Shown here piece after piece: positions 6,193-33,004 of a stretch of 64,000 nucleotides of DNA. The position numbers were made by a program, and so were the translations under genes. Location of the stretch: assembly GCA_950097015.1 (NCBI GenBank), contig CATNEN010000001.1, positions 13,888,001 through 13,952,000 on the forward strand, read 5' to 3'. The number at the start of each line of letters is the position of its first letter. The stretch's first letter is position 1. Source of the stretch: Macrostomum hystrix. Its lineage: Eukaryota > Animalia > Platyhelminthes. The notes beneath the pieces were generated by a model. It had not been told where the DNA came from and searched no databases. It was given only the letters and a program-made list of their open reading frames with translations.

Positions 6193-6545
6193 AAGATGAT
6201 AAATTGGCATCTGCTTGGACACATTCAAGATGATAAATTGGCGTCTGCTTGGACACATTCAAGATTATAAATTGGCATCTGCTTGGACACATTCAAGATT
6301 ATAAATTGGCATCTGCTTGGACACATTCAAGATTATAAATTGGCATCTGCTTGGACACATTCAAGATTATAAATTGGCATCTGCTTGGACACATTCAAGA
6401 TTATAAATTGGCATCTGCTTGGACACATTCAAGATGATAAATTGGCATCTGCTTGGACACATTCAAGATGATAAATTGGCATCTGCTTGGACACATTCAA
6501 GATGATAAATTGGCATCTGCTTGGACACATTCAAGATTATAAATT
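6193..6545. repeat. 34-bp minisatellite, ~10 copies
   Basis: aagat(g/t)ataaattggcatctgcttggacacattc head-to-tail, no spacers. Confidence 0.95.
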
Positions 6546-7299: not shown

Positions 7300-7337
7300 G
7301 TGAGTACTGCTGCTGCTGCTTTCGTAACTTCCAGCAA

Positions 7338-7568
7338 ATCGACTCAAGCCCTATCACCTCGACTCAAACCCTAGCAACTCGACTCAAACCCCAGCAACTC
7401 GACTCAAACCCCAGCAACTCGACTCAAACCCCAGCAACTCGACTCAAACCCTAGCAACTCGACTCAAACCCCAGCAACTCGACTCAAACCCCAGCAACAC
7501 GACTCAAACCCTAGCAACTCGACTCAAACCCTAGCAGCTCGACTCAAACCCTAGCAGCTCGACTCAAA
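7338..7568. repeat. 20-bp minisatellite (ctcgactcaaacc[c/t]agcaa-type)
   Basis: About 11 tandem units; the same family recurs at 30155-30357. Confidence 0.9.
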
Positions 7569-7591: not shown

Positions 7592-10500
7592 ATGCGACTA
7601 ATAACACTTTTAGCCCTGCTCATTGTTCGCACTGCAGAAGGTGAGTCCCAGTTGGCATTTGAGCAATCCAGTCAATCCACCAGATGCTCCGGACGCGGAT
7701 CTTTCTGCATGCGTAGCATTGTGCCGCAGCATTTGCATGCTTCATTCTTCATTCACTGTTCGCAAATCATTTTCCATGATTTTGCACCTGAATCCACTTC
7801 CTCAGTGACGGCCTCGAGTGTGACGGTGTTCCGTCGAGATGCCAGCGGCTCCATCACTCTGAATGAGTCGGTGAGCAGCAGCCTGAGCAGTGAGTCCGGC
7901 TGCGACTCCGACATCAAGTGCGTGACATTGTGCGAAAAGAGAGGCTGCTCTGCCGCAGTGCTGAATGAGACCAGCCGCGTCTGCCAGATCGTAGTCATCA
8001 ACGATGAGTCATCGGGTGCAGCGGGTCCGAACGGCAGTCACGTGACGAGGCAGCTGGGCTCGCCAACCGACGGAGCCGTGAGGCTGTGGAAGGCGGATGA
8101 CTTCGAGCAGCAGCTTCGGTCCAAGAGCTTTCGACTCGCCGTCACAAGTGAGAAATAAACCAATGAATTTTGAATTTGGGATTCGGGTTGGAATCATTCC
8201 TTTACGAATTTGAAATAATCCTATCCAATTCTATTCCTGTGACTCATCCTTTGCGAAAGACCTCGTTTCTAGAACTGACCAGGACACCCAGTAGATGCCC
8301 GCATACAGTGCCTCTATCAGCCGTTTAGTATAGAAAATATAAAATTAATAATTTAAATATATTAAAAAAATCTGGTAAAGAAAAATCCCAGCGGGTGGCT
8401 GTGGCTCCATAGAAGACCAGAAGCAATTCACAGCTGATACTGGGATTGGGATTGTGGAATGGAGTTTGGGTTCTGGGAAAATGACGTGTGTTTGACAAGG
8501 CGCGTTTATGGTGCGTATTTATTGATTAGCAAGTTCAAAGGTTCTAAACGAAACTGAAAGTAGGCTCGAGGTCTTAAGACATCGCCGTTGGCGCGCAACC
8601 ATGAGGTGAGTGGGTCTGCTATAAACTCGGGTGCGTTGTCCGACACTACTGTCTCCGGAACGCCAAATCGTGTGAATACGGTTCTGAGGCAATGTATGAT
8701 GGAATCGGTTGCCCGGTCGCGGCATGGGAAGGCCTCTATCCAACGTGAGAAAGAGTCCAGGATGACAAAATGTTATCAGTGTTATTTACGTAGGCCCAAT
8801 CCATATGAATGCGCGCTGGAATGGGGTAGCCTGACGGTGACCAAAGATCACTGTCTTGACCATTATGTGGGTGTAGCTGATTGCAGCCGGGGCAACACAA
8901 AAGCTCCCAAACCGAATGACAGTCTAGCATCTGAATAAAAATTCACACCCTTTACGATGAACTAACTAACTGAACAAGATATTCATCAAGTCTTGTCGAA
9001 GACCCTGATGACAAGGACAACTAACATTGTTCTGTGTGAACCTCTACAGCGAATCCCTACTAGTTAAAAAAATAAACACAATACAATATAGTGAGCATTA
9101 ATAACCGGCATGGTTTCATGATGAAATTTTGTGAGCAGAAAAATGCTGCCTATATTGTTGGTTTTTGCCACCAGAATCTTCGACGAGAATTCTGGAATTT
9201 GTGAGTCTAGAAGTTGTTTCATCAGCTAGAGTGCCGTGTTCTGGATTACCAAGGCGATTGGTTATATATTTTAGGAGATGCAGAAGGAAGAAAAATCTGG
9301 GTATTTGAAATACCCCATGTCTTTCGAATGTTAAAGGAAACGGGAAGATTAATTAATTAACGCCCTTGACCCAACTGTAACAGCTTGAGCTTGTTGAGAG
9401 AACGTTGGCACTTGAAAAGTTTGCAGTTGAAACCATAGCAAACGAACTTGTAGGGAAAAGTACAACAGAGAGGGATCGACCGATAACAATAATACGAGTA
9501 TAAAATGAGACCAGCGCTAAAACTGGGTTTCAAAGCACAGCAGAAAAGGAGAGTGGGATTCCTTTGGTGGCAGTCCCGAATCCCAAGGATTAAAAAGAAC
9601 AAGCGAATTTAGTAAAGTGATCAGCGAGCAATATTGCAAAACAACGCTGACACAAGCGTGAATAAATATGGTAAATTATTAGCGAGATAAACGAAAAGAA
9701 ACATAACTAATAAATTCAGTTGGCGCAGAAAAAGAAGATTGCGAGTTGAGCACAAGAACGGTTGAAAAAGGGGGCTAAAGATAAAAACCATTGAGAAGAA
9801 AGAAGACAGGCTGAAAAGGACGGACCAGGAGAGATAAAGATAACAGAAACAGAACAGAAGGACCAAAATAAAATTTTCATCTTACTTCAACTTAACTCAA
9901 ATTGCTCTTTTTAAGCAATTTTTCAAAGCAAAGCAAAGCAATTTCACTTTGCCGATTAGCTTCTCACACCTGGCTCGTTACATGTGAGCAGCTAATCTCT
10001 CACACTGCCGCATCACTATTCGACTCACCAAACAGACAGCAGCTCCGGCCGGAACGGATCGGTTCAGCTCTTCTCCATGCCGTTCGCTGCCTGCTTCCGC
10101 ATCGAGGCCTTCGGAGCTGCTGGGGGCAACACAACACAACCGAGCCGCGGCGGCAGAGGCGCCTCATCAGCTGGGAGCTTCTGGCTCGCCGATGGCACCC
10201 GACTGGACATTGTGGTCGGACAGGCCGGTGGCAACTCGGCGTGTGGTTATGGCGCAGGTGGTGGCGGTGGCAGCTTCGTGTACATCAACAACGGCACTGG
10301 CAGTCCTCGGCTGCTCCTGGCTGCTGGAGGAGGCGGAGGGACATCTTGGAATTGGGGTAAGTGCACTGAAGCTCAGAAGAGAGTGCGCCATTCGAAAATA
10401 TTTGTTTCTCTCTTAGCAGTCACTGAGAGCTTAAAGTTTATAGTTGTTAGTGATTGGAATGGTTTAGGCTGTTGAGTCAGGGCTCATAATGCAGCCTTTG

Positions 10501-11725
10501 TAGGCCCAGAGCTCAAGCATTCACTGAATGAGCCTCAGCGACTGGTGCAGTCCCTCCAGGTTCAGCCAGGGTCACAGATAGCAGAGCAGGATAAGCGTCT
10601 GAGGCCAGGAGTTGCTGGGCAGGAAGGACCATCGATGTCGAGGGCTCTGATTGGCAGGCGTCACATTCAATGGACTTGAACTTTCAAAGCTGCAGTGCAG
10701 CAGATTTAGACAGAAGCAACATGGAGGGCAAATCCTGGCTGACAAGCGATTAATCGGTAAATTTAATTCTCTTCATTAGCCATCCAAAGCAGTTTGACGA
10801 AAAATTGCCAATCAAGAATATAGGAACATGGATTTCATCGCGCAAAAACTTGGCTGTTTAAAACATTTTCATTGAACACAGACAAAGTACACTCCCTTCC
10901 AGCTACTCAGTCCATCGTTAGTATTGAGTAGCTCGTATCAGCAGGGTTTTAGCAGACAGATTCGAGGCAGTTGGAGGACAGATCTGCGCATGCTCGAGGA
11001 ACTCGGAGATCCGCAGATAGGTTGTGAAATTCATGAGATAAAGAATTGAGCAGCTCATATTCGTACTAGCGTAGATTATTTTAGAACTACTGAAAGTGAA
11101 AATTGGCTTGTCCGCCAGTTTTACAGACTTTCAGCAATAAATTAGGAAACTGGCAGCTCACCGAGCGGTGTGCCACCTGAGCTGATTGACAGAAACCATG
11201 CAAACCCATGGAATATTCGCTGAAATCCCAGATGGCGTGAGTGGTGATGGCGGCATCAACGGCTCGGACAGCTGGCCGAAGAACAAATGGACTGGCGCTG
11301 GAGGAGCTGCCGGTCAGCCGGGTCTGGTGGCGCCCTATCGCTACAACTCCATCTTCTCGTGCGGCGGTGCCGGCGCCGGCTGGCTCGGCTCGGCCCAGCC
11401 CAGCAACTTGTCCTTCCCTGATCCCGGAGGTCCCGGTCTGAGCCGCATCGACGGCTGGCTCGGCGGAGCTCGCAACTCCTCCTGCCCCACTGGCGACGGC
11501 GGCTTCGGTGGAGGCGGGGCTGGCGGCGGCTGCTGCGCTGGCGAACGCATCGGTGCTAGCGGCGGAGGCGGCGGATTCAGCGGTGGAGGTGCAGGCACAC
11601 GCGACGGACAGGCTGGAGGTGGGGGCGGCTCCTTCTGCAGCGGCTTCGGCTGCGCCACCGCCACCGGCGCCAACTCGGAGCCGCAGGGCCGCGTGCTGCT
11701 GAGCGCGTCTGCGGCCTGCGGCTGA
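7592..11725 (+). CDS. Secreted PAN/apple-like + ALK/LTK-like glycine-rich protein, paralog 2; exons 7592-7640, 7806-8147, 10036-10356, 11232-11725
   Basis: All three introns are GT-AG, phase 1, and the frame is continuous; same motifs and C-terminus (GRVLLSASAACG) as the other paralogs. Confidence 0.88.
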
Positions 11726-11760
11726 CGCTCAGAGCGAGGGGAGCCGCCAATCTGTGCCTC

Positions 11761-12010: not shown

Positions 12011-12219
12011 GGAAGCAGTGATTCAGTGATGCCCAGAAACATTGACAATAAGACTGCAGAAGATCGGATCAATTGAAATTATTTACCGGACTCAGTGTCA
12101 AATGGTTTTGACACTTTGACAATCCAAAATAGTTTTTTGGATTGCAAGCGAAAAGCAGCACAAGAATTCAAAATTTTCCCATGTCAAGTTGCTAATTTAT
12201 TTATTACTTCTGCACTCGT

Positions 12220-12428
12220 TTATTCGACACAAATACTGTTTATTCACCACATATACAGTTTATTCAACACAAATACAGTTTATTCAACACAAATACAGTT
12301 TATTCAACACAAATACTGTTTATGCAACACAAATACTGTTTATTGAACACAGATACTGTTTATTCAACACAAATACTGTTTATGCAACACAAATACAGTT
12401 TATTCAACACAAATGCTGTTTATTCAAC
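12220..12428. repeat. 20-bp minisatellite (tttattcaacacaaatactg)n
   Basis: About 10 units. Confidence 0.95.
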
Positions 12429-12921
12429 GCTGGTTTGACGCTGGCTTAGGACAGTGAAGGGTTGATTGGAAGTCACAGTTTGCAGCAATGGCATTTCACA
12501 CGAGTCGCGATTGCGACATCCTATGAAAACCATTGGTTCAAATGTCCATCAACCCCAGTGTGACTTCAGTGACAAGATTCGACTGCGATAGACGTGGAAG
12601 GCATCGATAGCCAGCTAATACCAGCTCCTTAGCTGTCATGCTAGTTTATTGCTGGGTTCGAGCATTGCTTGGGGTAGGCACAACAATTCTGTTCGTGACC
12701 TGTGGGACGAGTGTGACTGGGCTGGCATGAGGCCAATAGAATCACTCCCTTCTTTCACAGACTCCACTCCCCTTTCTCCCCTGTCATCTTCTCTGGTAGC
12801 TGCTTTCCCCTATCCTCTCCCCCGACATTTCCTCTCTCATTTGTCCCCTTCCTCCGCACAGGCGAGCCTCTCAGCCAACCCTTTCAGCATCGGCAGCTGC
12901 TTAGAGTTGATTTCTCATGAC

Positions 12922-13541
12922 GAGTTTTGGCGTGTTGATCAGACACACGAAACTCCCACTTCTAGACAATGGGGAACAATTGCCTAGGAATTTATAACAG
13001 TCACTTGAGACTTACTGCAATTGCTTCTTGTTCCTTGAGTAGTTTGTAGTCTTCTGGTCTTCGAAAGCCGGCGGTTCTTATTATCCTTGTTCTGGTCGAC
13101 CGTGAGGTTTCGAGTCTGTGTTTCTTGAGTCTTTGTAGTCTTGTCTTCTTTGTCTTCTTGGCAGCTGCTTGAGTTTGTCTGTTGGCCAATAAATGACGAG
13201 AGCGAATCAGATTACTTTTCGGTTTCCTCGAGCTCGGAATTCACAATAGAAACGTGCGCCCTAGTGAACAATTGAAATCTCTCGTGTATATCTCTAATAG
13301 GTCCTCCTGAAGAGCGTCTTCTTCGTTACCTCCGAAAGATAACGGATAACTCAAATCAAATCAATCAATAATCCTCTAGGAATGTATCCTAGGAAACAAG
13401 GAGGCTAGTAATCTATTAGTAATCTATTAGTAATCTATTTAACTCATTCCTAAAAATAGATTAAACGTTGTAGCTATGGTTTCCTTGTGACATTACTTTA
13501 AGCAGCGTGTTAAGCAAAAGCACATTTTACAACTCTCTACA
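12922..13541 (-). repeat. 3' LTR (620 bp, internally deleted)
   Basis: Matches 26904-27930 except that 443 bp are replaced by a 36-bp filler (13406-13441); one SNP noticed; begins TGTAGAG on the minus strand. Confidence 0.95.
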
Positions 13542-13556
13542 ATATCTCCTTTTTTT
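13542..13556 (-). promoter_or_regulatory. Polypurine tract
   Basis: aaaaaaaggagatat immediately precedes the 3' LTR TG on the minus strand. Confidence 0.8.
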
Positions 13557-13949
13557 ACGAAAAAATTCGTCCCGAATTTATTATTGACAAATAAAATTTT
13601 GGTATAAAGATGTAGGAGAATATACTGATATGCAACTTATTGTTGAAATAGTTGATAATTCGATTTAAAACTCACACCTAAAGCGTGAGAGTTAATAGCT
13701 CGTACCATCACCGAGCAGTAGCAATAATTGTCATTATGTATATCTATATATCCGCTACGAACGTATTAGTTAGTGGTAATTGTAGGCAAAATTGTAATTA
13801 AGAGGCGATAGTGAATGTAAGAAAAGTGTTGGATTTTCATTCACCCATAGATGATGTTGTTTAGGTGTGTTGGGTGTTGTCGCCTTATTTTTTCGACCAT
13901 CTTGCTTATCGGCCAAAAAAGTTTTTGCAGTTGTGTGTAGGTTATTAGT

Positions 13950-14462
13950 TTATTCGGTCCGTTCCATCAACATGAGGAAGGTGTCGAACGCCGTTGGTTC
14001 TCCTGGACTTTCAGCAATATTGTGGGCGAGCAGTAAGAGCCTTTGACGATGCGCTTTTAAACGCCATGGTATTGGCCATGATTTTATGTTACTCGTTAAG
14101 TCGTTTATGCTGGCCTCCTCGCAGTTATTTTCGTCTAGTAGGAGGTCTAGGTGTATGGGCGTCATGTAGGTGATCTTTGTAGTATTGTCCAACATCTTCT
14201 CTAAACAGTCTGGGCAGGAAGTGCTGTTTCTTCTTGCCATTGATTGTAAGCAGCTAAAACAACTCCAATATCGATTTTCGCACAATCGTATGTTGGGTTG
14301 TTCGTTGCATAGGACGCACCATACTCGGCTCCTGCGACACAGCGGACATGTAGGTAGTGGGCCCTGGCTTGTGCAGTTTAGACAGACTTTATGCCCCCAT
14401 TCGCATACTGGAACCAGATCTAGGCGTTCGTCGAGGCAGATGGGGCACAACTCTCGATTCAT
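13950..14462 (-). CDS. Accessory protein with two tandem RING-like fingers (copy B)
   Basis: CPICLD...CEWGHKVCLNC...CPLCR, then CVLC...CENRYWSCFSC...CPDC; acceptor tttcaacag directly precedes the ATG. Confidence 0.8.
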   Translation of the reverse strand: MNRELCPICLDERLDLVPVCEWGHKVCLNCTSQGPLPTCPLCRRSRVWCVLCNEQPNIRLCENRYWSCFSCLQSMARRNSTSCPDCLEKMLDNTTKITYMTPIHLDLLLDENNCEEASINDLTSNIKSWPIPWRLKAHRQRLLLLAHNIAESPGEPTAFDTFLMLMERTE

Positions 14463-14756
14463 CTGTTGAAATATTTTAATAATATTCTGATTCAGAGTTA
14501 TTATACTGGTATGTTTCTTGAGATGGTAGTATATATGATAGATCCTCGTTTCGCAAAATTAGTGTGGGAAGAATTGTACAGAAAATGGGACAGGGATGAA
14601 GATTCATGTCATAGACAAGATTAAACAGTTTTTGTGCAATATCATGTATGGACAATTGTCTAAGCTTAGGGCCGTATTGCAATGAGTATCGTACGCTCGT
14701 ACAATGTTTTTACGCGTTTTGTGAGCAATTCGTGGTATAGGCCATGGTTTTAGAAG

Positions 14757-15134
14757 TTAAATTATCTTATTAGAGGAAAAAAGAGTATAGGTTAATGGAT
14801 GAAGTTGGCAACCATAATTTGGTTTAATACGCGCAAGTTTGTTATAAATCATGAATAGTGGGGTATTATTGCAAACAGGACATTGGAAAATGGCTCGATA
14901 GGCAAACTTCTTCATGCATTGCGGACACATAAAATGTTGGTTTTGACAGTATTGTACTGTTCGCCATGAGTTACATATCATACATTGGCGGAGATTTCCA
15001 CGGCACAGAGGACAGTTTTTTAATGGTTTTTTGTAGTGTGCGAGGCTTAAGCAAGAACCGCAAACATGGTGTTTATTGACACATATACATGGTAGTTTAC
15101 ATGAGAATTCTGTAAGACAGACAGGACAGTCCAT
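14757..15134 (-). CDS. Accessory protein with two tandem RING-like fingers (copy A; probable premature stop)
   Basis: CPVC...CVNKHHVCGSC...CPLCR and CMIC...CQNQHFMCPQC...CPVC; the frame continues past the stop as LLKPWPIPR, matching SWPIPW of copy B. Confidence 0.8.
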   Translation of the reverse strand: MDCPVCLTEFSCKLPCICVNKHHVCGSCLSLAHYKKPLKNCPLCRGNLRQCMICNSWRTVQYCQNQHFMCPQCMKKFAYRAIFQCPVCNNTPLFMIYNKLARIKPNYGCQLHPLTYTLFSSNKII

Positions 15135-15264
15135 GGTAGTGTTCGCGAAAATTTTGTGGGCGTTTGCAGAGAGCAGAGGTTTAGTCGCCTTTTACGACAA
15201 GCTTGAGAAGCTGTAGTGCTATTCTTAATCCCGGTCACTACACGGGGAACAATAAACGAGTAAT

Positions 15265-18200
15265 TTAACGAGAACGTAGGTTATACGTCTGCTTATTTGG
15301 TGGTGTGTTTGTGGTTTGTGTCTCGGCATGTGCTGTTGCAATGTGCGTGTTTGTTGTTTTTGTGTGTTCTGGATTCTGTAACGTTGGAAGGAATGTAGTG
15401 TCCTTAGTGATGCGTTTTAAACGTTAAATGTGAACATAGAACTGAGGTTGATGTGGATCCTGGATATTTGCAAGGCGTGCTGTTGTTGCGGATATCAGTG
15501 CTGTTACACGGAAAGGTCCTTTGTATTTGAAGGCATGTTTGTGCGTATGCTGTGCCGGGTAGTGTAGGTAGACGATATCTCCCACTTGTAAAGTAAAGAT
15601 GCATGATTACTTGTTGTAGGTACGGTAGATTGATTGTCGAGATTATGTTTTGCAATTTGCCATGCTAGGTGTAATTGAGAAGTGAACTTTTGTAGTGTCG
15701 TTGGCGTGTCAACATATTGAGATGGCAGTAATTTCTGAACTAATAGGTTCGGTGGTTGAAAGTCTCTAGAGAACATCAGAATGAATGGTGTGTTCTCTGT
15801 TGAGCGATGAACTGCGCTGTTGTAGGCCATTGTCACTGATTGTATGTAAATAATCCAATCTTCAGGTTGCTTATAGACAAAGTGTGTCAACATTTCATGT
15901 AGGTTTCTGTGAAATCTTTCGACGAGGTTTGCTTTTGGATTATATGTCGAGGTGAATATCTGTTGAATATTCAGTAGTTTGGCGGCCTGTTGAAATAATT
16001 GTAATGTGAATTGTGTGCCATTGTCAGATGTTAGCGTCTTCGGGTTCCGAATTTGCAGATAATTTCATTATAGAAGGCCATTGCTACTGTTGTCGCTGTG
16101 ATGTCAGGTATCGGAATGGCAACGGCGAATTTCGAGAAAACATCCAAGGCTGTAAAAATGTAGTTGTAGTCGATAGAGTGTTGTCGAGCCGGTGGTAGTG
16201 GTCCGGTAATGTCAATTGACACTGTGTCCCATGTAGTTGTCTTCGGCACTGATTGGAGTTCAGGTTTTTGTCGTCTTTCGATTTTTGTTGAAGCACATGA
16301 GTGACATTGTATGCAGTACTTGCGAATGTCTAAATTCATTGTTGGCCAAAAATAGAATTAGACTACTCTATGGATTGTTTTCTTGGCGGATAAGTGTCCG
16401 GCTAATGGACTATCATGGAGTTCGTGTAGGATCGCTGAACGGAATGTGTATGGTAGGTACAGTCGCGGAATATTGTTGTACACCCAGTAGAGTGCGAGTT
16501 CTCTGAAAACTAGACTAGTTTTGTGCTTTCGTAAGAATTGTTTTTCGATTTTTGTAAGTTATTTTTCCGTTTCTTCATTATCTTCTTGTATGGCTTTGTA
16601 AAAGGAATCGTCTTGTTGTGCTTTCAACAAGTCTTTTATGGTTGGAATTGGATGAACTGCATTGATCTCGTATGTTCTGGACAGTGCATCAGCGGCTTTA
16701 CTCATTGGCCCTGGTTTGTAAACCAGGTGAAAGTTGTAGTCCTGTATTTGAGGACCATTCGGATAAGTCTATTGTTCGTCTGTCCTTTTGTTTTAACAAC
16801 GTGAGTCAGCGGTGCATGATCTGTGCGAATGATACGCTCGTAGTTGGCAGTGGTGATCCATAGATGTAGTAATGGAATTGTCGAAGAGCAAACAGAACAG
16901 CTAGTAGTTCTCGTTCAGTGGCTGACCATTTTGTTTCGTTTGTTCTTAGAGCTCTGCTGATGTAAGCAATCGGTTTTTCTTTCTTTGGTTCCATTTCCTG
17001 AAGTAGTACTGCTCCTAATCCACTTCCTGATGCGTCTGTTTCTATGATAAAAGGTTTGTGGAAGTTCGGGTGTTTGAGAAGAGCATCACTAGTTAGTTGT
17101 TGTTTGATTCTATCGAAACTTTCCTGTTGTTCCGCTTTGCAGTTGTCTTCTTTCCACTTTGGAATTTTTAGTAGTTCGTACAATGGTTTAGCCGTTTGTG
17201 CAAAGTTAGGTAGGAATTTTCGGAAATATTGTGCTAGTCCAAGGAATGACTGCAGTTTGGTAATTGACGTAGGTTTCGGGAACTTCTTGACCTTGTCGAC
17301 GTTATTTGGGTCTGGTGATATGCCTCGTGATGAAACGTGATGTCCAAGATATCGGACCGAATCTCTGCAGAATTTACATTTTGTTGGTTGCAGTTTTAGA
17401 CCTTGTTGTCGGAGTAAGAAGAGAGCTTGTTCCATGACTTTTACTAGTTGTTCAAAGTTATTTCCAGAGGCAAGGATATCATCAACATAGTGAAGCAGAT
17501 TTGTACATCCGGCTAGCATATAGGCTGTAAGACGGCTCATTGTTGCTGGTGAGTTGGAGATTCCCATTGGACTTCTCTGATACGCGAAAACTTCTCCTTT
17601 GTAAGTTTTGAAGGCAGTGTATTGTTTTGAGTCTTCTTCAAGTTCGATTTGCCAGAATCCATGTCGTAGGTCAAACACAGTGAAGAGTGTTGCCGTATTG
17701 AGTCGTGCTAGCAGTTCTGAGATTTTTGGTAGACTTTGTTGATCGGTGGGAATGTACTTATTTAGGACTCGGAAATCACAGACGAGTCGTCTTTCGTTTG
17801 TTTCTTTCTTTTCGACAAGAAGGCAAGGTGAAGAATATGCTGAGACGGTTCGTTTTATGATCCCTGCTTTAAGCATTTTTTCTATGATTTCATCGAAATG
17901 TTGTTGTAGGTGTTTAGCAACTGGATATGGTTTACATTGGATTGGTTCTTGATGAGGTAGTAGTTCAATCTTTTGCTTGATATCACGAGCACATCCGATG
18001 TCGTAATCGTGATGACAGAAGACGTCGTTATACTTCCACAATAGATCTTTAACTTGTGCTTTTTGTCCTTCGGTGATTGGACTTTGAGAAAGATCAATTT
18101 GTTGTAGGAATTTTTGTTTAGACATTTTTGTTGTTGTGTCTGGTTGGATGAGCATTACTGAAGCTTGTGTGTTGAGATGTCCCATGCATGTTCCTGCATA

Positions 18201-18947
18201 GATTTTTACTGGATGTTGATTTGGATTTATAATTTGTACTGGGATGTTTCTTTCCTTTGTGATAAGGACTAGAGCCGTTGGTATTAAAACTTCTTTTGTT
18301 GTGAGGATCTTCTTTCTTGGTTCAAATATCATAGCTTCTTCGACATCGTCATGATTGGCGAGGTATGCTTTAACCCAACATGTACTTTCCGGTTGTATGA
18401 AAACATCTTGTTTAATATGTACTTTTGGTTGAAGGTGAACTTGGCTGACTAAGGGATGTTCCACATTGTCCAGTTTGAATGTTTGTTTGTTGAAATCAAA
18501 TGTTAATGGTGGATTCATCTGCCGAAATGTGTCGATTCCAATAATAACATCTTGACTTGGAAGATGGTCAATAACAAATTCTTGTACTAGAAGTTGCTTG
18601 TTTGCAAGTTTAAGTGATATATTCACTTGTCCTAGGATATTAAGTGCATGTCCTCCGGCTCCGGCGACAGCGATTGAAGAAGGTCGCATATGAAGTTGCA
18701 ATTTGTCGTAGAGTCTTTTTGTGATGACTGTGATTGAACTTCCTGAGTCGAGAAGTGCTTTACTGGGCATGTTGTTTATAAATACTTGAGCCATCGCTCT
18801 ACCCATATTGGCTTGCAAGGTGCAAATGTAATTTGCTGGCCATTTTGGATCCGTTGGTAGACGAGGAGATGTCGGCGGTGGTCTCGCTGTCCTGATTTTA
18901 ATTTTTGGGTAAATATTTAATCGTTCTGGTTCTGGTGCTGTTGGCAA
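15265..18947 (-). pseudogene. pol: pol: aspartic protease, RT, RNase H, integrase (several frameshifts/stops after ~16830)
   Basis: LLDSGS, YVDD, ETDASG..GAVL, TDHAPL, ADALSR, HHCC zinc finger (HDSP..GH...CIQCHSC), DITGP / DVFSKF / SDNG / VERF, GPF motif, ends YNLRSR*. Confidence 0.95.
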
Positions 18948-20884
18948 TAATTGTTTTCCTTGATCTTGTAGTAGAGTTTCTTCATTTTTTCGTTGGGTGT
19001 AGTAGTTTCTTGTTGTTTGTCAATTTGGAAAATCCGTTGTTTTGCTGGATAGGCTCGTGCTACACATCGTACTGCTGTGATAAAGATCATTAGTGCAAGG
19101 TGAATCCATACAATGCATGCACTGGAGAAGATGAATCCCTGATAGTAACTTCCTTTTCCTTGGAGTAAATCGAGAAAGCTATTCGACCAAAAGGATCCTA
19201 TTGCGTTATGTATGATGAATCCTGTCGAAAAGGATTGTTCTTTGTCCTGTTGGTTGTTTTGGGTAAAGAGCTTTTTCATCATCTGTCGTTGGGCGATAAA
19301 AACTTGAAGAAAATCATTAATTGTCCATCCTAGTGTGATTTCGTCAAGTTTGATGTCACTAAATGGTTTATAGGTGGTCTTATTTATCTTGAGCTGTAGG
19401 TCCGCTAGTTCGTATGTTTCGTCGATAATAGCTTGCATACCAGTGATGTTTGTAATGTGCCCAGTTGTTGAGACCTTGTGTAGTTTATTATTAATGTTGA
19501 AATAGTTGGCTGCGTCAGCGCAGGGTCTCGGGATTACAGTTCCAACAATTATATTGTGCACAGTATCTAGAAATCCTTGAATTCGTTTCCCATTGTAGTA
19601 AGCTTCGATTCGGGGTTTATCGTAGCACGTAGTTGATGTGTTTGATGGCAAGATATTAAAATGATGTAGTGGCACACATTTGTAGATCAACAGATGGCCA
19701 TAGATGGGGATAGCTAGAACATCTCGAATGCCTGTGATTTTTCTGAATGTAGACGTTGGATTGACATAATAATTTTGTCGTGCATAGTTAAGTGCAGTTT
19801 CGTGCATTCTACAAGTCAGTTGGATCAGGGATTTGTGCAAGTAGTTGAGTTCTTTATGTAGGTTATGTTCCATTGCTGCGAGTTTTGCCGCTAGTAGTCG
19901 TGCAGAAACCATTGATGGTCTTTGTATTTCTCTCCTTTTCCGAGCTGTGTTGGTTCTTGTTGAATAAGTACCATTTACCAGTCTCATAAAGGTATCCTCA
20001 TCCATATCACGTAATTCGAGCGGTATCTCTTGTTCAGACACTAGAAGTTTTTTGGAGTTATCCTTACCGTTAATTCGGAGATACTTGGGTTTTTTGGAAA
20101 CGTTAGAGCAAAATCCGACGTACTCGCAAGGAAAGTATTTGACAGTAGATTTCCTTTTATTGTATGGTACTTCTGGAATTTACAATCAATATTTGGTTCA
20201 ACTTTCCATGCAACGAAGTACTGTCGTTGGTATTCTGTAATCTCATAGTGTGGGTTTTGTCGATGTTCAATTTGCCATTTGTAATTTTGATGATATGTTG
20301 GAGCCAGCGGTACTTGCCATACGAGCGTACTGCTTCGTTCCAGAGTTTTGCTGTTTCGCAGAACCCTGTGTTGTACTTACAGTCTTCAAGTGATAATTGT
20401 AGAGATTCCATGTTTTCAAACGGATTGTGGTAAAACAAGACTTTCCGGATCAAGTAACTGTTTGTCGTGGTGTAACGTGGCTATATGTATTCGTTCCAAT
20501 GGACATATCTACCGTTCGCACTGTTCTTGGTTCTGAAGAGTTGAGAGTTATCAATCTTTTCATCGGCATGAAGTTCTCCATCTTTAGAAAATAATGTTTG
20601 GTTCCACTGAAGGCATTCTTCTTGTGTGACAGGCAGTGCTGTTTGCCAGAATCGGATGCGATTCCATTGGATGTACCAAACCTTTTCTAGTTCATGTTTA
20701 TCTCGGAAACAGACAATACCATATTGTCTATGTTTCTTTGTGTTTGCTTTGTAGACATCGATCGTTAATGGAATAGGTTTTGTTTGATTAGTTTTAAAGT
20801 AACTGCACTTGATTTCCGTTGGTATGTTGTAAATGACTGGTTGGATGTTGGCATCAGTAGGGCATATCATGGGCACTGAAGATA
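18917..20884 (-). pseudogene. env: env-like glycoprotein ectodomain + TM (class III fusogen-like by motif recall); one stop (20481-20483) and about two frameshifts (~20225, ~20080)
   Basis: Cys-rich (PMIC, EEC, CKYNTGFC, W..E...CKF, YKC, CY..P, GFLD...II...PC), N-x-S/T sites, furin RKRR (19942-19931), C-terminal hydrophobic segment FIFSSACIVWIHLALMIFITAV. Confidence 0.8.
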
Positions 20885-22188
20885 CGAGGAGCGTACTGAA
20901 AGTTTTGAGATACGTCTGACTTATAAGTTGCAGCTGCGCGCCTTTTAATGTACATACTGTACCACCTTAAAAATGAATGAGTATAAATTTTCAGCCTTTG
21001 CGCTCTTGTCAATTTTTCACAATCACTCTTCAAAGTCAATACCCCCTACCAAACTGTACTCGCTCCAATGGAGTTGACAAACCGCGACTTTCGTGCCATG
21101 ATTGTTTATGACCAGCGTAAAGGTCTCACGCAAGAGCAATGCGTTGAAAGTTTACGTGCTGCCTTTGGAGACCAAGCCCCTTCACGTGCCACCGTTTTTC
21201 GGTGGTACAGTGAATGCAAGTGGGGCCGGAGCAGCCTTGATGACGAGCCTCGGTCGGGACGTCCAGTTTCCGCTGTCACGGACGAAAACATCGCTGCCGT
21301 CCGGAGAATGATCGACGAAGACCGGCGAGTGACCTGTGCCGAGATCAGGGAGGCTCTTGGCATTGGATCGGCAGCGGTTACGACCATCCTACACGACAAG
21401 CTGGGAGCCTCCAAGCGATGTGCCCGATGGGTGCCCCACAACCTGACGGAGGACCAGAAAGCGGAGAGGGTGCGTTGGTGCGAATTCATGCTTGAAACGA
21501 CTCTGGCACCTCGAAGCGATGCTGGGAGATTGTCACAGGTGATGAGACCTGGGTCTACCAGTACGACCCGGAAACCAAGCAGCAGTCGGCAGTTTGGCTC
21601 CTTCCGGATGATGCCACTCCAACGAAGGTCAAGCGGGCCCGCAGCGTCGGGAAGCAGATGGTGGCGACTTTCTTCAGCCAGGCTGGCCACCTGGCGACTG
21701 TAGCGCTCCAAGACAGGCGTACAGTCAATGCCGACTGGTACATCAACCAGTGCCTGCCGCTGGTGTTTGATGCGTGGCGCAGACGCCGGCCGCGCACCGG
21801 ACTTCGTGGCCTGCTGCTGCACCACGACAATGCCAGTGCGCACACGGCTGCTGCAACATTGGCATTTCTGACCGAGAATGGAGTCCAGCTGGTGACGCAT
21901 CCTGCATATTCGCCGGACCTGGCACCCTGCGACTTCTTTCTCTTCCCTTTGGTGAAGAACCAACTGCGCGGGACTCGGTTTGAGAGCCCTGAAGCAGCAA
22001 GAATCGAGTTCGAGCGGGTGGTTTCAGCAGTGCCTGAAGAACAGTGGGCTGGAGCCTGGACGCAGTGGTTTCACCGAATGAGGAAATGTGCACAAGCTGG
22101 TGGCAACTACTTTGAAAAATTGTGACAGAGAATTTACCTCAGACACTTTTGGTTTTGGTGCATCTCAAAACTTTCAGTACACCCCTCG
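20885..22188 (+). mobile_element. mariner transposon (1304 bp) inserted in env
   Basis: 27-bp TIRs cgagg(a/g)g(c/t)gtactgaaagttttgagat with 2 mismatches; TA duplication at 20883-20884 and 22189-22190. Confidence 0.97.
21068..22125 (+). pseudogene. mariner DD34D transposase, frameshift near 21495
   Basis: HTH N-terminus, WVPHNL, GDETW, HHDNA, YSPDLAPCDF motifs split over two frames. Confidence 0.95.
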
Positions 22189-22190
22189 TA

Positions 22191-22932
22191 GTACAACTGT
22201 CGGGAGAAGTAACATCACGATGGCTGAAAACAACCATCTTATCAGTATGTGCCTTTTCTTTTTCTTCACTTTGGTTGGTGGTTTATTGGTGTTTATTGAA
22301 TATCGTTGGTCTTCTGTCTCTCCAATTGGTGGAGTAAGGCGCATAGAAAAGTGCCATGGGTTGTTGCATCCTGATGGTCTGGTTTGTTGGTTATACCAGG
22401 TTGGTTTTTTCATATCGAATGTTAATGGTGTATTGAGAGTTTGCGGTACGGTACTTGTAGTATCCGTTCTCATGTCGATCCACGTTGTTGGTTCATCATA
22501 GACATGATCGTCATCCTTTTCCATCGACGTACCGTAGTCACTTTTAGTCTGAGAAGATCTATCGTGCTTCGAGTAGTACGATTCGGTATTCACTGCTTTA
22601 TTGTGTCCATTCTGTCCTTCCGATAAATTGACAGGGGTTATGTTTTCGTATTCGAGATCAGGTTTGTACTTGGGTGTCGAAGGCGGTGTCTCTGTCAAGT
22701 CGATGTCATCGACTAAAATTTGTAGCATGCTGATGCTTTCTTCAGACGTGTTGTGTGAATTTGTCGCACTGTGGTCCTCATTACTCCTTTCTGTGGATGT
22801 GGACAATTCATCTATGCCTTCTTTGTTTTGCAGAACTTTTGAAAGATCGCTCATCGTTGGAATTTTGAATAATCCTTTGATTTGTTGTTGTAATTGCTTT
22901 CGTTCAATGTGTTGACAGGTGTTGAAGATTAT
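22191..22932 (-). CDS. Gag-Env linker ending in basic residues + internal signal sequence (segment between the two nested insertions)
   Basis: Open frame ending KVKKKKRHILIRWLFSAIVMLLLPTVVL; in frame with gag upstream and env downstream after removal of the insertions. Confidence 0.8.
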
Positions 22933-25124
22933 TAATTATTAAAATTATTAAATAAGATTATTATTATTATTATCAAAAAGATTATTGTTTACCGATTGTA
23001 CCATATGACTAAGCTTATTGTTACTGTGGTTTGGCATACTCGACTTGAAGCATTATTTAACGCTGAAGCATTGTTTAACGCCGATTGTTTAATCCCGATT
23101 GTTTAACGATGCCTCATCGAATCAGAAACGTTCTAGACTTCACTGAGTGTGTATTGTCTATGGCTACAACTGTGCCATATGGAGTGAAAAGCAGTAGAGG
23201 AATACATAGGTTGGACTCTGCTAAGCTGTGCCATAGACTATTGGAGCGAAAAGGAGTAGAGAAATGCAAAGGGTTTGCGTTTAAAAATACAAGTTATAAG
23301 TTTCACTGTCTGCACTGATTCCAAAAATGCATCTAATACATTGGAAAAACTTGCCGACCGACTCTTTTAACGGAGTATCTGCTAGCGAAATGGATTTTCT
23401 TTCAATGCTGAGTGCAACGGACCACTCGGAGGACGCTGATCTACTGGAATTTGTCAACTTCTTAGAAGATCCCGCCCGTGAAGATCAGTCGGTGCTGGAC
23501 ATATCATTACCGGATCTACCTGGTGACGCACCACTGTCGGTTGACGATCTCGATCGCATTGAAATCGATTCGCTACCCAAGAATACGCGAGAACAGATGT
23601 TCCAACATGGAAAAGCATTTGTGGAGTTTCTACGAAGACAAACTGAAGTGTCCCCTGAGACGATTTCGCAGACCATGCTGAATGAGTTTCTATGTTTCTA
23701 CTACTTTTCGTTAAAGAAAGCTGACGGAGGAAGGTACGCACCTGCGTCCTTGGTTTGCATCCGTGCCGGCATTCAGCGCTACTTTTGCATCGTTCTTAAG
23801 CGTTCTGTGGATATCATTTCTGGAGGAGAGTTTGCTGCCGCTAACAGAATGCTACGCGTCAAAGTACGCGAATACAATGGATCTGGTGCTTTCAGAAGAC
23901 AATATCCGCCAATTGAGGAAGGAGACCTAGAGCGATTGCGGAAATACTTTGATAGAAGCACAGCAGAACGTGTTCAGGATGAAGTGCTCTTCACATTACT
24001 CTATACATTAGGTGAGCGCGGCCAAGAACATCTTAAATATCTCAAGAAGAAGGGCACCTTGGTAGAAGGAATAGATGCTGATAGCCAACCATATCTGAGC
24101 CTGCCAGATCTGCCAACGAAGAATCAATCGACTGATCCAACGCGTGCTAAGAACAACTCAGCAAAGCAAGCTCGCCTCTATGGACAGCAGCGAGATCTTG
24201 TCGTCGACTACTTAAAGCTGCTACCGGAGAACACAAAAGATTCATCCTTCTTTCCACGCCCACTGGCAAACGATGGAAGCGGTAACCTTCGTTTTTCAAG
24301 TAACCAGGTTAGAGGCATTAATTGGCTAGCTAACTTCAAGCGTCACCTGAGCGAGATCTGCAAGTTGTCAAAAATGTACACTAATCATTGCATCCGGGTC
24401 ACGCGTATTTCGGATTTGCATGAATGTGGACACAAGCTGGACGAAATCATGACTATTACTGGGCAGAGGGCCAAGTCGACTGTCCGGCGTTACTTGTCGA
24501 GAAGACGCGATCGGTCCATTAAACAAGTTTCGATTGCTCTAAGTAAAGCGCTGGAGCGACCACTAGCAACTACAAGTAACTTGAATACCGATGTCAAGCC
24601 GTTATGCGATGGGGCTGCCGAAGGTGCTGACGATGTTGTAGCGCCAATGATGGTAATCGAGTCTAGCGTCGGAGCCTCTGCCACTAGTGCTGAGGCGGCG
24701 GAGCCGGGGATTGTGCATGTGACAGCCAACGACAGCGAGAAAAAAACAACAGTCGTCCTAAATTTCAACGGAAAATTCGAAAACTGCAGCTTCCAAATCA
24801 AAGGGACGTAAGTCGCCAAGTTTCGTCATTTCAATATAGGGAATAAACTATATCGAGGTCCCATAACAATGTGAACGGAATAGTAATATTTATTGCTTGT
24901 ATTGTAAAACACGTTATTAGTTTTGTTAATGCGAAATGTTGTTTTGATTTGTTTTAATTCCAAAATATAACTCAATATAGCTAACCAATAGTCTATGGTT
25001 AAATCTGCGAAACATCGTTAAACAATCAACTTCTCTGTGAAACGTTGTTAGTATGCTAAACCATAGCAACAATACTTTCTCTTGGCGAGGGAGTCGATAA
25101 CTCTTCAAACAATGAACCCATTAT
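22933..25124 (+). mobile_element. Crypton-type tyrosine-recombinase DNA transposon (2192 bp including one attat copy)
   Basis: Flanked by direct attat (22928-22932, 25120-25124); removal restores the host frame; subterminal inverted blocks; YR ORF. Confidence 0.85.
23327..24811 (+). CDS. Crypton tyrosine recombinase (DUF3504-like)
   Basis: FYYFSLKKADG..YAPASL..IRAGIQRY, GERGQEH, YTNHCIR, ITGQR...RRY; intronless 494 aa. Confidence 0.9.
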   Translation: MHLIHWKNLPTDSFNGVSASEMDFLSMLSATDHSEDADLLEFVNFLEDPAREDQSVLDISLPDLPGDAPLSVDDLDRIEIDSLPKNTREQMFQHGKAFVEFLRRQTEVSPETISQTMLNEFLCFYYFSLKKADGGRYAPASLVCIRAGIQRYFCIVLKRSVDIISGGEFAAANRMLRVKVREYNGSGAFRRQYPPIEEGDLERLRKYFDRSTAERVQDEVLFTLLYTLGERGQEHLKYLKKKGTLVEGIDADSQPYLSLPDLPTKNQSTDPTRAKNNSAKQARLYGQQRDLVVDYLKLLPENTKDSSFFPRPLANDGSGNLRFSSNQVRGINWLANFKRHLSEICKLSKMYTNHCIRVTRISDLHECGHKLDEIMTITGQRAKSTVRRYLSRRRDRSIKQVSIALSKALERPLATTSNLNTDVKPLCDGAAEGADDVVAPMMVIESSVGASATSAEAAEPGIVHVTANDSEKKTTVVLNFNGKFENCSFQIKGT

Positions 25125-26381
25125 GCAGCTACTGTCGTTGCTTATGTTGTCGTTCTGTATTTTCTGTGTTGACTCATTGATAAGGTAAACATTTTTATCT
25201 TCTGTATCCTCTGTTTCCTTTTGTGGCATGGGCGGCTCTTTCGAATGGTCGCTTTCGATTATAGTAACATAGGCTGCACCATCGTTGTCCAGATGAAGGT
25301 CATTGATTTCTTGCTCCTTCTTTTGTTTCTCAAGTTCATCAAGAACATTGACGGAAAAGTCTGGCATAAGATCTTCAATCTTGAACTTTGGTTCAATAGT
25401 TTGAGTGTATTCAGGCTCAATAGCTTGAGTGTATTGTCGACGGACTTGCGTTGGTTGTCTTGGAGGTGGAGGATTTCTTTGTTGACGATAAGGTACGATG
25501 GCATTAGATGGTCTGCTATCTTGTTGTCGACTATTTGTCCAATTACGGTTTGAAAGCTGTCTTGGAGGACGAGTCCAATTGGTCTGTCGATTGTCATTGT
25601 ATGAACGTGGGTTGCCACGTGATCTGCAGTCTCTAGCATAATGACCGATCCTTCCACAGGTATAGCAAGTTGATGTGTGTAAGTATCTTTGTTGTGGTTG
25701 TGGATAGGAATACCTCTGCTGTTGTGGTACAATAGCAGAAGTTTGGTGTTGCTGCATGAGTTTGCTTAATTGTTCTGCTAGTTGTGTCGTGTCACTATTA
25801 TGAGTAGTCATAAGATGCATTCCACAACGGAGCAATTGTTCCTCTGTGTTAATAGTTTCTCTCAGCAGTCTATCTCGCAAAGTAGGCTGTGCGTTGTTAA
25901 TCACATGAAGTATTAAGCTTTGTTCCCGGTCTTCAAGACGTTGTCTTTCTCGTGCAGCTGATTCGGCAGGTCCTATAGGTTGAGCTCCTTGATCCAATGG
26001 TGGAGGCTGATGTAATGCTTTGACGATCTTACGGATGTCATCAACAAAGGTGAGAAAACTCTCAGTGGAACTCATTTTTCGATTATGAAGTTTATGAAGG
26101 AGTACCGATCTGTTTGTTCCACATCGTGCGAATTGTGCTCTCAGTTGGGTAACTAGAGCTTGATAATCTTGTTGTACTGCAGCTGTCAATTTTCCATAGA
26201 TTTCTCGGGCTGTTCCTTGTAACAGTGGAGGTAGGAGGAGTGCTTTCTCTGCATTCTGTAATCCATATTCGCGTGAGACCAAATCAAAGTGATCAATGAA
26301 TTTGTTGAAATCTTTATCCATTGTATACATTCCGACCGTTTCCCTAATGTCACGATGGACCTGATAGTTTCTTCGTGCCAT
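25125..26381 (-). CDS. gag: gag (capsid + CCHC zinc knuckle), interrupted at its 3' end by the Crypton
   Basis: Retrotransposon gag-like helical region (LLPPLLQGTAREIY), CYTCGRIGHYARDC; first ATG at 26381. Confidence 0.92.
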
Positions 26382-26880
26382 ATTCGCAACTGGGTACGGA
26401 AATAATTCAAGTTCTGGATCGATGTTCAAGGGTTCGTCCAGATTGACTTCTCTGACAAGATTTAGTGTGAATAAAAAGTGTGTGTGTGCGTGTGCGTGTG
26501 TATCAACAAAATGAAAATGGTTTACACGGGGGAATTATTTACTCAGGACAAGGGAGAAAATTTTATACAAGGCAGGGAACGTATGCCGCTTTCAACGCTG
26601 AAAAGGGGTTATTGAAATGAGAGCCGGTGAGTTCAGTCGCGCGATTCCCAGGTGTGCAAACAATAGAGCGAAGTGACGCATGTGGCTTATGTGCAAACAA
26701 TATCCGGTAGGGACAGCAAAATTTTTCAGAGAGATGACGCAACAAAACTTTTATGAAACGGTGGATCAAAGGCAATAATGATGAGTTGCAAAAATTTTTT
26801 CTTTTTACTTTTTTGTTAAAACGATTCGAAAGTTGTAACGCAAAAAAATTTAGTATCTCGGCCTGGGCTTGATTGCAAGG

Positions 26881-26897
26881 CCTGGGCGAGATCACCA
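26881..26897 (-). promoter_or_regulatory. Primer-binding site, probably tRNA-Val
   Basis: TGGTGATCTCGCCCAGG 6 nt inside the 5' LTR match; resembles the complement of eukaryotic tRNA-Val 3' ends (from memory). Confidence 0.75.
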
Positions 26898-26903
26898 GTT
26901 AAA

Positions 26904-27930
26904 GAGTTTTGGCGTGTTGATCAGACACACGAAACTCCCACTTCTAGACAATGGGGAACAATTGCCTAGGAATTTATAACAGTCACTTGAGACTTACTGC
27001 AATTGCTTCTTGTTCCTTGAGTAGTTTGTAGTCTTCTGGTCTTCGAAAGCCGGCGGTTCTTATTATCCTTGTTCTGGTCGACCGTGAGGTTTCGAGTCTG
27101 TGTTTCTTGAGTCTTTGTAGTCTTGTCTTCTTTGTCTTCTTGGCAGCTGCTTGAGTTTGTCTGTTGGCCAATAAATGACGAGAGCGAATCAGATTACTTT
27201 TCGGTTTCCTCGAGCTCGGAATTCACAATAGAAACGTGCGCCCTAGTGAACAATTGAAATCTCTCGTGTATATCTCTAATAGGTCCTCCTGAAGAGCGTC
27301 TTCTTCGTTACCTCCGAAAGATAACGGATAACTCAAATCAAATCAATCAATAATCCTCTAGGAATGTATCCTAGGAAACAAGGAGGCCTTTCTCAAATGT
27401 ATCGACGATATGTGGCTCTCGTAAACTTAGTTCAATTCAACAACTATTGCTAGCAATAAATTACTCTGTCTAGTAAAGCGCTCACCACTTGTCTTTGCCT
27501 CAGAGATGAGTCCTCTTCTTCGTAAGATGTTTTGAAGTCCGGTGGACCGCTCCGAGTCTGAATTTTCAGCTCAGATTTTCGCTTGTATTTATAGTAAAAT
27601 TTTGGAAAAAACCGGTTCTACTACCGGGTGTTTACTTAGGTCACACATATTTGTTTAGTGAGTCATGATTGTGAGTTTTACCATATTTGGAATATTGTGT
27701 AAATACAGATACAGAAACCGATGAGTCATAATTGTTTGTTTTACCATATTTGGAATTCAAGCAAATACAGCTGTCAAGAACCGGTTCTCCGGTTTCATGT
27801 CACATGACTTTTTTCTAAAAATAGCGAATGACTCATTCCTAAAAATAGATTAAACGTTGTAGCTATGGTTTCCTTGTGACATTACTTTAAGTAGCGTGTT
27901 AAGCAAAAGCACATTTTACAACTCTCTACA
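26904..27930 (-). repeat. 5' LTR (1027 bp)
   Basis: Direct repeat of 12922-13541; starts TGT on the minus strand. Confidence 0.95.
27586..27835 (-). promoter_or_regulatory. Putative U3 promoter: TATA + two CArG boxes + three AP-1 motifs
   Basis: TATAAATA (27593-27586); ccatatttgg at 27681 and 27744; tga(g/c)tca at 27659, 27722, 27829. Confidence 0.55.
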
Positions 27931-29948: not shown

Positions 29949-30154
29949 AGACTTTGTTTTCAGAGAGTGTTTTGTTTTGTCCAGTCCATAGCAACAGGTC
30001 ATCGGTAACAGATTCGACTAGAACTGAGTGGGTGGATACAATGATGAAGGCGAGAATGCATCAGAGCTGCTTGGATTGGACAGTGTCAGGTGAGAGGCGG
30101 AACTCTGCCTTTCCTTATAAATTTCAGCTGAGCAGCAACCACTGTCAGCGCATG

Positions 30155-30357
30155 AAACCCTAGCAACTCGTCTCAAACCCTAGCAACTCGACTCAAACCC
30201 TAGCAACTCGACTCGAACCCTAGCAACTCGACTGAAACCCTAGCAACTCGACTCGAACCCTAGCAACTCGACTGAAACCCTAGCAACTCGACTCGAACCC
30301 TAGCAACTCGACTCGAAACCTAGCAACTCGACTCAAACCCCAGCAACTGGACTCAAA
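30155..30357. repeat. 20-bp minisatellite, same family as 7338-7568
   Basis: aaaccctagcaactcgactc units. Confidence 0.9.
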
Positions 30358-32951: not shown

Positions 32952-33004
32952 CGCTCAGTCTGAAGGGAACCGCATCAGAGCCAGGGAGATAATTGTGATG
33001 GGCT

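What the first reader, a model, noticed from the sequence alone, without database searches (positions are those of the whole stretch)
18917..20884. Envelope looks like a class III viral fusogen (gB / chuvirus-G-like), not the baculovirus-F type of errantiviruses
Seen: signal sequence, spaced Cys pattern, furin RKRR followed by a long helical stretch (LAAKLAAMEHNLHKELNYLHKSLIQLTC), NPT...A...G.L.IYKC, CY..P, GFLD...II...C, and a C-terminal TM. Inference from recalled motif layout: homologous to the class III glycoproteins captured by some invertebrate LTR elements. This would imply a potentially infectious endogenous virus in this host.
Basis: inference. Interest (0 to 1): 0.8.

Follow-up and report, generated by a model that had tools for sequence, protein, structure and literature searches.

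The report
Broken gypsy retroelement with herpes-gB-like envelope
This is a broken copy of a gypsy-type jumping gene, likely from a flatworm, that carries a herpesvirus-gB-like protein predicted to fuse membranes, placed between its capsid and enzyme genes; the feature is real, but this kind of element has already been published and this copy cannot make a working envelope.

Summary
All quoted motifs are present, and homologues confirm one in-frame stop and two frameshifts. The class III call is supported. A profile including this protein hits herpes gB in 42 of 43 PDB sequences (best E 2e-12). All 39 listed PDB fold matches of its model are gB; viral matches are gB, chuvirus-, nyami- and bornavirus-type glycoproteins. 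No F-type protein is listed.

Three corrections. The 'signal sequence' is partly read from a mariner inserted into env; the likely anchor lies 1.3 kb upstream. The order is gag-env-pol, likely one polyprotein, as in the best hit (2,852 aa). This copy is dead: env and pol are broken and two insertions are nested in it.

gB-type env in GAG-ENV-POL Ty3/gypsy elements is published for flatworms, nematodes and bryozoans (PMC13524379). Its Macrostomum entry has the same 12-nt primer site. Infectivity is untested. The scan noted such elements before on other DNA. A side lead is two paralogous tandem-RING ORFs after pol. New member of a known kind.

The parts
26900..27930 (-). 5' LTR (about 1,031 nt; begins TG; holds about 440 nt that the 3' LTR lacks)
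   Evidence: 12918-13404 vs 26900-27386 differ at 2 positions; 13442-13541 vs 27831-27930 at 1
26880..26898 (-). primer-binding site; its 12-mer equals the PBS listed for Platyhelminthes_Rhabditophora_Mlig_errantivirus_2
   Evidence: 12-mer at 26886-26897, once in the window; Supplementary file 1 row
25056..26534 (-). gag ORF with CCHC zinc knuckle; ends where the 2.1-kb insertion begins
   Evidence: zf-CCHC E 4e-7; P0001 gag match E 1.5e-25
22928..25069 (+). nested 2,142-nt insertion with an open 494-aa ORF (23327-24811) that looks like a tyrosine recombinase (Crypton-like by recalled motifs) and subterminal inverted repeats
   Evidence: contigs join 22927 to 25070 in 3 of 4 runs; 15-nt and 14-nt perfect inverted repeats; weak hits phrog_1 integrase E 0.038 and QRICH1 E 0.02; no PDB hit
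22191..22927 (-). likely N-terminal part of env: long polar linker ending in a basic run and a hydrophobic segment (predicted internal signal or anchor)
   Evidence: the same layout precedes the env domain in P0001
20883..22190 (+). mariner transposon inserted in env; TA at both ends; terminal repeats 27 of 29 alike; transposase in two frames
   Evidence: HTH_48, Transposase_1; (contigs join 20883 to 22191 in 4 of 4 runs)
20358..20882 (-). env ectodomain piece 1 (predicted domains II/I, aromatic hairpin tip like a fusion loop), in-frame stop at 20481-20483
20044..20301 (-). env ectodomain piece 2, in another frame
18917..20080 (-). env piece 3: furin-like RKRR, central helix, gB domain IV-like beta crown, transmembrane helix and tail
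15400..18956 (-). pol (protease, RT, RNase H, integrase in Ty3/gypsy order); begins in a frame other than env's; at least 2 stops and 3 frameshifts in its 3' part
14757..15134 (-). accessory ORF 1, two Cys-rich RING-like fingers (125 aa)
   Evidence: (36% identical to ORF 2 over 86 aa, E 4e-15)
13950..14462 (-). accessory ORF 2, two RING-like fingers (170 aa)
   Evidence: Sina_RING E 4e-4, zf-RING_2 E 0.007, below cut-off; no homologue found
13542..13556 (-). polypurine tract
12918..13541 (-). 3' LTR (624 nt; ends CA); 4-nt flanking duplication matches at 3 of 4 positions

Best explanation
This is the broken envelope gene of a GAG-ENV-POL Ty3/gypsy LTR retroelement, likely of a Macrostomum-type flatworm, and the protein it once encoded is predicted to be a class III membrane fusogen with the herpesvirus gB fold. 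[quoted passage not shown] Inferred mechanism for intact family members: one Gag-Env-Pol polyprotein is made. An internal signal or anchor after Gag threads the ectodomain into the ER lumen, a second transmembrane helix returns the chain to the cytosol, and Pol follows. Signal peptidase, furin and the element's own protease would release the parts. The trimeric gB-like protein would coat budding particles and fuse them with neighbouring or germline cells. This copy cannot do so: env carries a mariner insertion, a stop and two frameshifts, and pol is broken too.
For: Profile of alignment A2 (window ORF plus 10 homologues) against the PDB: 42 of 43 sequences at E<=10 are herpes gB, as are all 11 at E<=1e-3 (best 2.1e-12). 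The AlphaFold model of the main ORF has mean pLDDT 66, with 78-92 over residues 131-250. All 39 Foldseek PDB rows shown are gB. The top four VIA rows are gB (best Z 8.2, rmsd 3.5 over 142 residues, model 107-250). Viral matches are gB, entomopoxvirus gB-like, chuvirus, nyamivirus and bornavirus glycoproteins. A natural full-length homologue, P0002, which matches all three window pieces, aligns to gB over 644-817 columns in all 35 rows shown (best E 7.5e-18). Pfam gives Monjiviricetes_fusion E 5.5e-6 for the window and hits it in 9 of 20 homologues, Glycoprotein_B in 3 of 20. The best hit, P0001, is one 2,852-aa ORF collinear with gag, env and pol; Pfam finds a protease in the same ORF as env in 4 of 20 hits. 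Published GAG-ENV-POL gB-type elements occur in Platyhelminthes, Nematoda and Bryozoa, and the Macrostomum entry has the same PBS 12-mer.
Against: The window's own Pfam score (25.1 bits) is below the 27-bit cut-off, and single-sequence phmmer against the PDB found nothing. Whole-model TM-scores are low (0.25-0.30 for the window model, 0.18-0.28 for P0002; pTM 0.38-0.39), and VIA's note says Z near 8 can be ordinary. One of 20 homologues has a weak Baculo_F hit (E 2.8e-4, below cut-off, near its C-terminal membrane region). The fusion domain was folded only in a homologue, not from the window's own pieces. The single polyprotein is inferred from homologues; in the window env and pol lie in different frames. 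The host is inferred, since no genome is held. Fusion and infectivity were not tested.
Confidence: 0.9

Rival explanations
1. The env is an F-type (baculovirus F / paramyxovirus F, class I) protein as in Drosophila errantiviruses.
For: A furin-like site followed by a long helix also fits class I. One of 20 homologues has a weak Baculo_F hit. Planarian Burro env, also between gag and pol, was reported as similar to gypsy Env and to fusion proteins of baculo-, retro- and paramyxoviruses (PMC6431247, section 7).
Against: No F protein appears among the 43 PDB profile hits, the 39 and 35 Foldseek PDB rows shown or the named rows of the 50 viral rows. The conserved C...NPT...C...CY..P...GFLD...C block aligns to gB domains III-IV. 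No hydrophobic fusion peptide follows RKRR.
Confidence: 0.02
2. The glycoprotein is a recent, separate capture from a chuvirus- or mononegavirus-like RNA virus (an endogenous viral element or fresh recombinant), not an old part of the retroelement.
For: The Pfam family hit is the Monjiviricetes glycoprotein. Chuvirus and rhabdo-like glycoproteins are among the best viral fold matches.
Against: All viral matches have 12-22% identity and near-tied E-values. The closest sequence relatives are mostly retroelement proteins with gag or protease in the same ORF. PMC13524379 argues for ancient co-divergence of env and pol. I built no tree, so the donor cannot be named.
Confidence: 0.06
3. The family is currently an infectious virus of its host, and the window shows a young copy whose breaks are partly assembly errors.
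For: The LTRs differ at only 3 of 587 aligned positions. Contigs of public runs lack both nested insertions and differ from the window by gaps across the frameshifted stretch. One contig suggests an empty site (30-nt side, weak). The paper lists 16 copies of the Macrostomum element with the same PBS.
Against: Three in-frame stops and two nested insertions are not typical assembly slips. Copy number and intact ORFs show transposition, not cell entry. The paper says entry by gB-type env is unknown. My search listing showed no flatworm particle or fusion data.
Confidence: 0.25

Closest known systems
GAG-ENV-POL, HSV/gB-type 'errantiviruses' of Platyhelminthes, Nematoda and Bryozoa (Chary and Hayashi, eLife 2026, PMC13524379), entry Platyhelminthes_Rhabditophora_Mlig_errantivirus_2
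   Same: Ty3/gypsy pol; gB-type env between gag and pol; ectodomain between two hydrophobic segments; identical 12-nt PBS.
   Different: The listed element spans 10,591 nt with 863-nt LTRs and about 8.9 kb inside. This copy has LTRs of 624 and about 1,031 nt and about 9.9 kb inside without the two insertions, including two RING ORFs; 'ring' occurs 0 times in the paper's main text. Its sequence was not in the supplement I searched, so same family versus sister family is open. This copy is broken; the paper lists intact ones.
Burro / GYPSM1 giant gypsy elements of planarians (PMC6431247)
   Same: Flatworm gypsy elements with env in frame between gag and pol and with ubiquitin-related accessory domains.
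   Different: Burro exceeds 30 kb, with a polyprotein of about 4,900-5,100 aa holding BIR, MATH and ankyrin domains, and its env was likened to gypsy Env and mononegavirus glycoproteins. Here the element is about 11.5 kb without insertions and the RING ORFs are separate and follow pol.
Herpesvirus glycoprotein B and Monjiviricetes/chuvirus glycoproteins (class III fusogens)
   Same: Central helix, domain IV-like beta crown, conserved Cys spacing and C-terminal anchor.
   Different: Identity is only 12-22%; the ectodomain is shorter; it is embedded in a retroelement and has no gH/gL/gD partners in the element.

Membership tests
Ty3/gypsy (Metaviridae-like) LTR retrotransposon | pol order protease-RT-RNase H-integrase | tested here: met
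Ty3/gypsy (Metaviridae-like) LTR retrotransposon | LTRs, PBS, PPT, target-site duplication | tested here: met
   the duplication matches at 3 of 4 positions, and the 5' LTR does not end in CA
Ty3/gypsy (Metaviridae-like) LTR retrotransposon | RT phylogeny or GyDB profile places pol in Ty3/gypsy | not tested
   no tree built; BEL/Pao shares the domain order, so this rests on Pfam hits and on homologues (Ty3_capsid in P0017)
Class III fusogen, gB type | long central helix followed by domain IV beta crown with conserved disulfide Cys | tested here: met
Class III fusogen, gB type | domain I/II beta architecture with fusion loops | tested here: inconclusive
   seen in the model of homologue P0002; the window's pieces align to it but were not folded themselves
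Class III fusogen, gB type | type I membrane topology (signal or anchor, ectodomain, C-terminal transmembrane helix) | tested here: met
   hydropathy; the N-terminal segment is separated from the ectodomain by the mariner
Class III fusogen, gB type | trimer formation and membrane fusion activity | not testable with these tools
   no complex job sent; needs experiment
GAG-ENV-POL HSV/gB-type errantiviruses (PMC13524379) | gene order gag-env-pol with gB-type env | tested here: met
GAG-ENV-POL HSV/gB-type errantiviruses (PMC13524379) | intact, uninterrupted ORFs (the paper's inclusion rule) | tested here: not met
   this copy is broken; this bars it from the intact set, not from the lineage
GAG-ENV-POL HSV/gB-type errantiviruses (PMC13524379) | same family as Mlig_errantivirus_2 | tested here: inconclusive
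   PBS 12-mer identical; lengths differ; its sequence was not found in supplementary file 3
F-type env (baculovirus F / gypsy Env) | F fold; hydrophobic fusion peptide right after the furin site | tested here: not met
   no hydrophobic window >=1.5 before residue 347; the sequence after RKRR aligns to the gB central helix

The most novel reading that the evidence does not exclude
A flatworm gB-enveloped retroelement lineage has gained its own pair of tandem-RING (E3-ligase-like) accessory genes, like the host-modulating genes of complex viruses. It is active enough to re-copy crippled members in trans, so a dead copy carrying a mariner and a tyrosine-recombinase element was recently inserted with near-identical LTRs: an enveloped particle ferrying other transposons between cells.
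Probability: 0.12. Interest if true: 0.6.

Novelty: new member of a known kind. Interest (0 to 1): 0.25.

Why it matters
It adds one more, damaged, example to a published class: Ty3/gypsy elements that carry a class III fusogen inside a gag-env-pol unit. The open question for that class is whether gB alone, without herpesvirus partner proteins, lets such elements enter cells; this broken copy does not make that easier to test. The part that may be new is the pair of RING-like accessory ORFs, and the contrast between near-identical LTRs and a heavily damaged interior.

Tried and rejected
No genome is held, so other copies in the same assembly could not be counted. Word-seeded protein searches found no homologue of the env ORF (0 of 2,565 candidates), only P0008 with profile A2 (1 of 6,013), and none for RING ORF 2 (0 of 14). 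phmmer against the PDB found nothing for env or the recombinase-like ORF. tblastn against phages found nothing. The protein atlas did not answer, and a VIA search of the P0002 model was not taken. No RNA holder was listed among runs, which says nothing about expression. VSV G and baculovirus gp64 were not among the listed fold matches, and thogotovirus glycoproteins matched only the central helix at Z 5.3-5.5; absence from a list does not exclude them. I looked by eye for an in-frame slippery heptamer in the env/pol overlap (18920-19019) and saw no canonical one, so programmed frameshifting is not favoured but not excluded. Paper searches with no result: Macrostomum + LTR retrotransposon + envelope, gag-env-pol + polyprotein, gypsy + additional ORF + RING finger + flatworm. 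'RING' occurs 0 times in PMC5408684. Contig depths were not used as copy numbers. Supplementary figures of PMC13524379 (cysteine-bridge alignments for flatworms) could not be read and bear on family assignment.

Full report
1. What is there. The finding lies inside a 15.0-kb LTR element on the minus strand (12918-27930). The LTR cores are near-identical, with 3 differences in 587 aligned positions; there is a PBS, a polypurine tract and a 4-nt flanking duplication matching at 3 of 4 positions. [quoted passage not shown] So env lies between gag and pol.

2. Observation check. The cysteine pattern is conserved: four Cys in 15 of 15 or 16 of 16 rows, and four more in 6 of 6 rows with residues there. 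The furin-like motif is weak alone (11% of shuffles) but sits where several homologues have basic motifs. The 'signal sequence' is misread: the letters above 20884 belong to the mariner's terminal repeat. Contigs in 4 of 4 runs join 20883 to 22191 without the mariner, and in 3 of 4 join 22927 to 25070 without the 2.1-kb insertion. Both are therefore secondary insertions, and the likely anchor of env lies upstream of the mariner.

3. What the protein is. Alone, the main ORF gives only a sub-threshold Pfam hit (Monjiviricetes_fusion, 25.1 bits against 27) and no PDB hit. An exhaustive search gave 20 relatives at E<=1e-3. A profile from the window ORF and 10 of these hits herpes gB in 42 of 43 PDB sequences (best 2.1e-12; the other is RACK1 at E 0.099). 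I left the longer hits out of this profile to avoid gag and protease signal. The AlphaFold model, from the window ORF and 18 of the 20 hits, has mean pLDDT 66. It matches gB in all 39 Foldseek PDB rows shown and in the top four rows of an independent aligner (Z 8.2-7.3; later rows are mostly coiled coils at 5.7 or less). In the viral library the matches are herpes gB, entomopoxvirus gB-like, chuvirus, nyamivirus and bornavirus glycoproteins; 5 of 50 rows have no name and 3 are 'uncharacterized'. The N-terminal half is broken, so I folded a natural homologue, P0002, that matches all three pieces; it aligns to gB over the whole ectodomain (best E 7.5e-18). The two upstream window pieces match the family profile (97% and 82%). 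Against: TM-scores are low (0.18-0.30), the models are only moderately confident, and one homologue has a weak Baculo_F hit. Identities to viral proteins are 12-22% and near-tied, so no donor can be named.

4. How it likely works. The best hit, P0001, is a single 2,852-aa ORF collinear with this element's gag, env and pol. Pfam finds a protease in the same ORF as env in 4 of 20 hits, and a zinc knuckle or capsid domain in 5 others or the same (P0009, P0014, P0015, P0017, P0020). I infer that intact members make one Gag-Env-Pol polyprotein crossing the membrane twice, with Gag and Pol in the cytosol and the gB-like ectodomain in the lumen, then cut by host and element proteases. Trimer formation, particle coating and fusion follow from established class III biology and were not tested. 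This copy cannot do this. Env has an insertion, a stop and two frameshifts; env and pol are out of frame; and pol has at least two stops and three frameshifts.

5. What is known. Chary and Hayashi (PMC13524379) report gB-type env as about as common as F-type in env-carrying Ty3/gypsy elements, and GAG-ENV-POL order with gB-type env in Nematoda, Bryozoa and Platyhelminthes. I read the abstract, section 5 part 1, section 6, section 9 part 1, section 14, keyword passages and supplement rows. Their Macrostomum lignano entry (16 copies) has the same PBS 12-mer as this element, which is my basis for inferring a Macrostomum-type host; lengths differ, so it may be a sister family. They state that entry by gB-type env is unknown. 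Env in frame between gag and pol, with ubiquitin-related accessory domains, was described earlier for planarian Burro elements (PMC6431247, passages and section 7). Sacco et al. 2022 I saw only as cited in the eLife paper. PMC5408684 I saw as passages. After I had reached this reading, the scan's index showed four earlier notes with the same verdict on other DNA; they are not independent support.

6. What may be new. Two open, paralogous tandem-RING ORFs follow pol and occur in at least some other copies. I found no homologue and no paper on this combination (search listings only), which is a narrow search. The near-identical LTRs around a heavily damaged interior are also unexplained. If LTR divergence matched the 2-3% seen against other copies, 3 or fewer differences would have probability 0.003 to 2e-5; but those contigs may come from other strains, and the breaks were not checked in reads of the source.

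7. Verdict. Observation confirmed, with the signal sequence corrected. Class III, gB-type assignment supported (about 0.9). Infectivity not supported for this copy and untested for the family. New member of a known kind; interest 0.25.

Noticed in passing
window 13950-14462 and 14757-15134 (-): Two open, paralogous ORFs with two RING-like fingers each lie between pol and the 3' LTR (36% identical). Contigs of other copies cover ORF 1 in 3 of 4 runs and most of ORF 2 in 1 of 4 (X1), and one contig links ORF 1 to the pol end. Some contigs diverge at about 14510, 14175 and 13587, so the 3' region varies among copies. No homologue was found.
   Followed up: partly
window 12918-13541 vs 26900-27930: The LTRs differ at 3 of 587 aligned positions, yet the interior has at least 3 stops, at least 5 frameshifts and two nested insertions, and differs by about 2-3% from contigs of other copies. 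This is unexplained: trans-mobilisation of a dead copy, gene conversion, strain difference or assembly error. The 3' LTR has a 36-nt tandem filler where the 5' LTR has about 440 nt.
   Followed up: partly
window 22928-25069 (+): A 2.1-kb insertion with an open 494-aa recombinase-like ORF and several subterminal inverted repeats. It is a separate mobile unit, since contigs lack it in 3 of 4 runs. The label 'Crypton-like' rests on recalled motifs and weak hits only.
   Followed up: partly
window 20883-22190 (+): Mariner element with TA ends; its transposase is split over two frames.
   Followed up: partly
window 3971-4967, 9995-11732, 31978-32958: Several 79-86% similar copies of a glycine-rich coding-like segment (GAGGG-type) flank the element, apparently a tandem host gene family.
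   Followed up: no
window 8506-8942 (-): Fragment of another gypsy-like integrase.
   Followed up: no
window 43690-47600: Satellite of 175 copies of a 21-nt unit; other short tandem arrays at 6193-6546, 7331-7568, 12214-12428 and 30153-30357.
   Followed up: no
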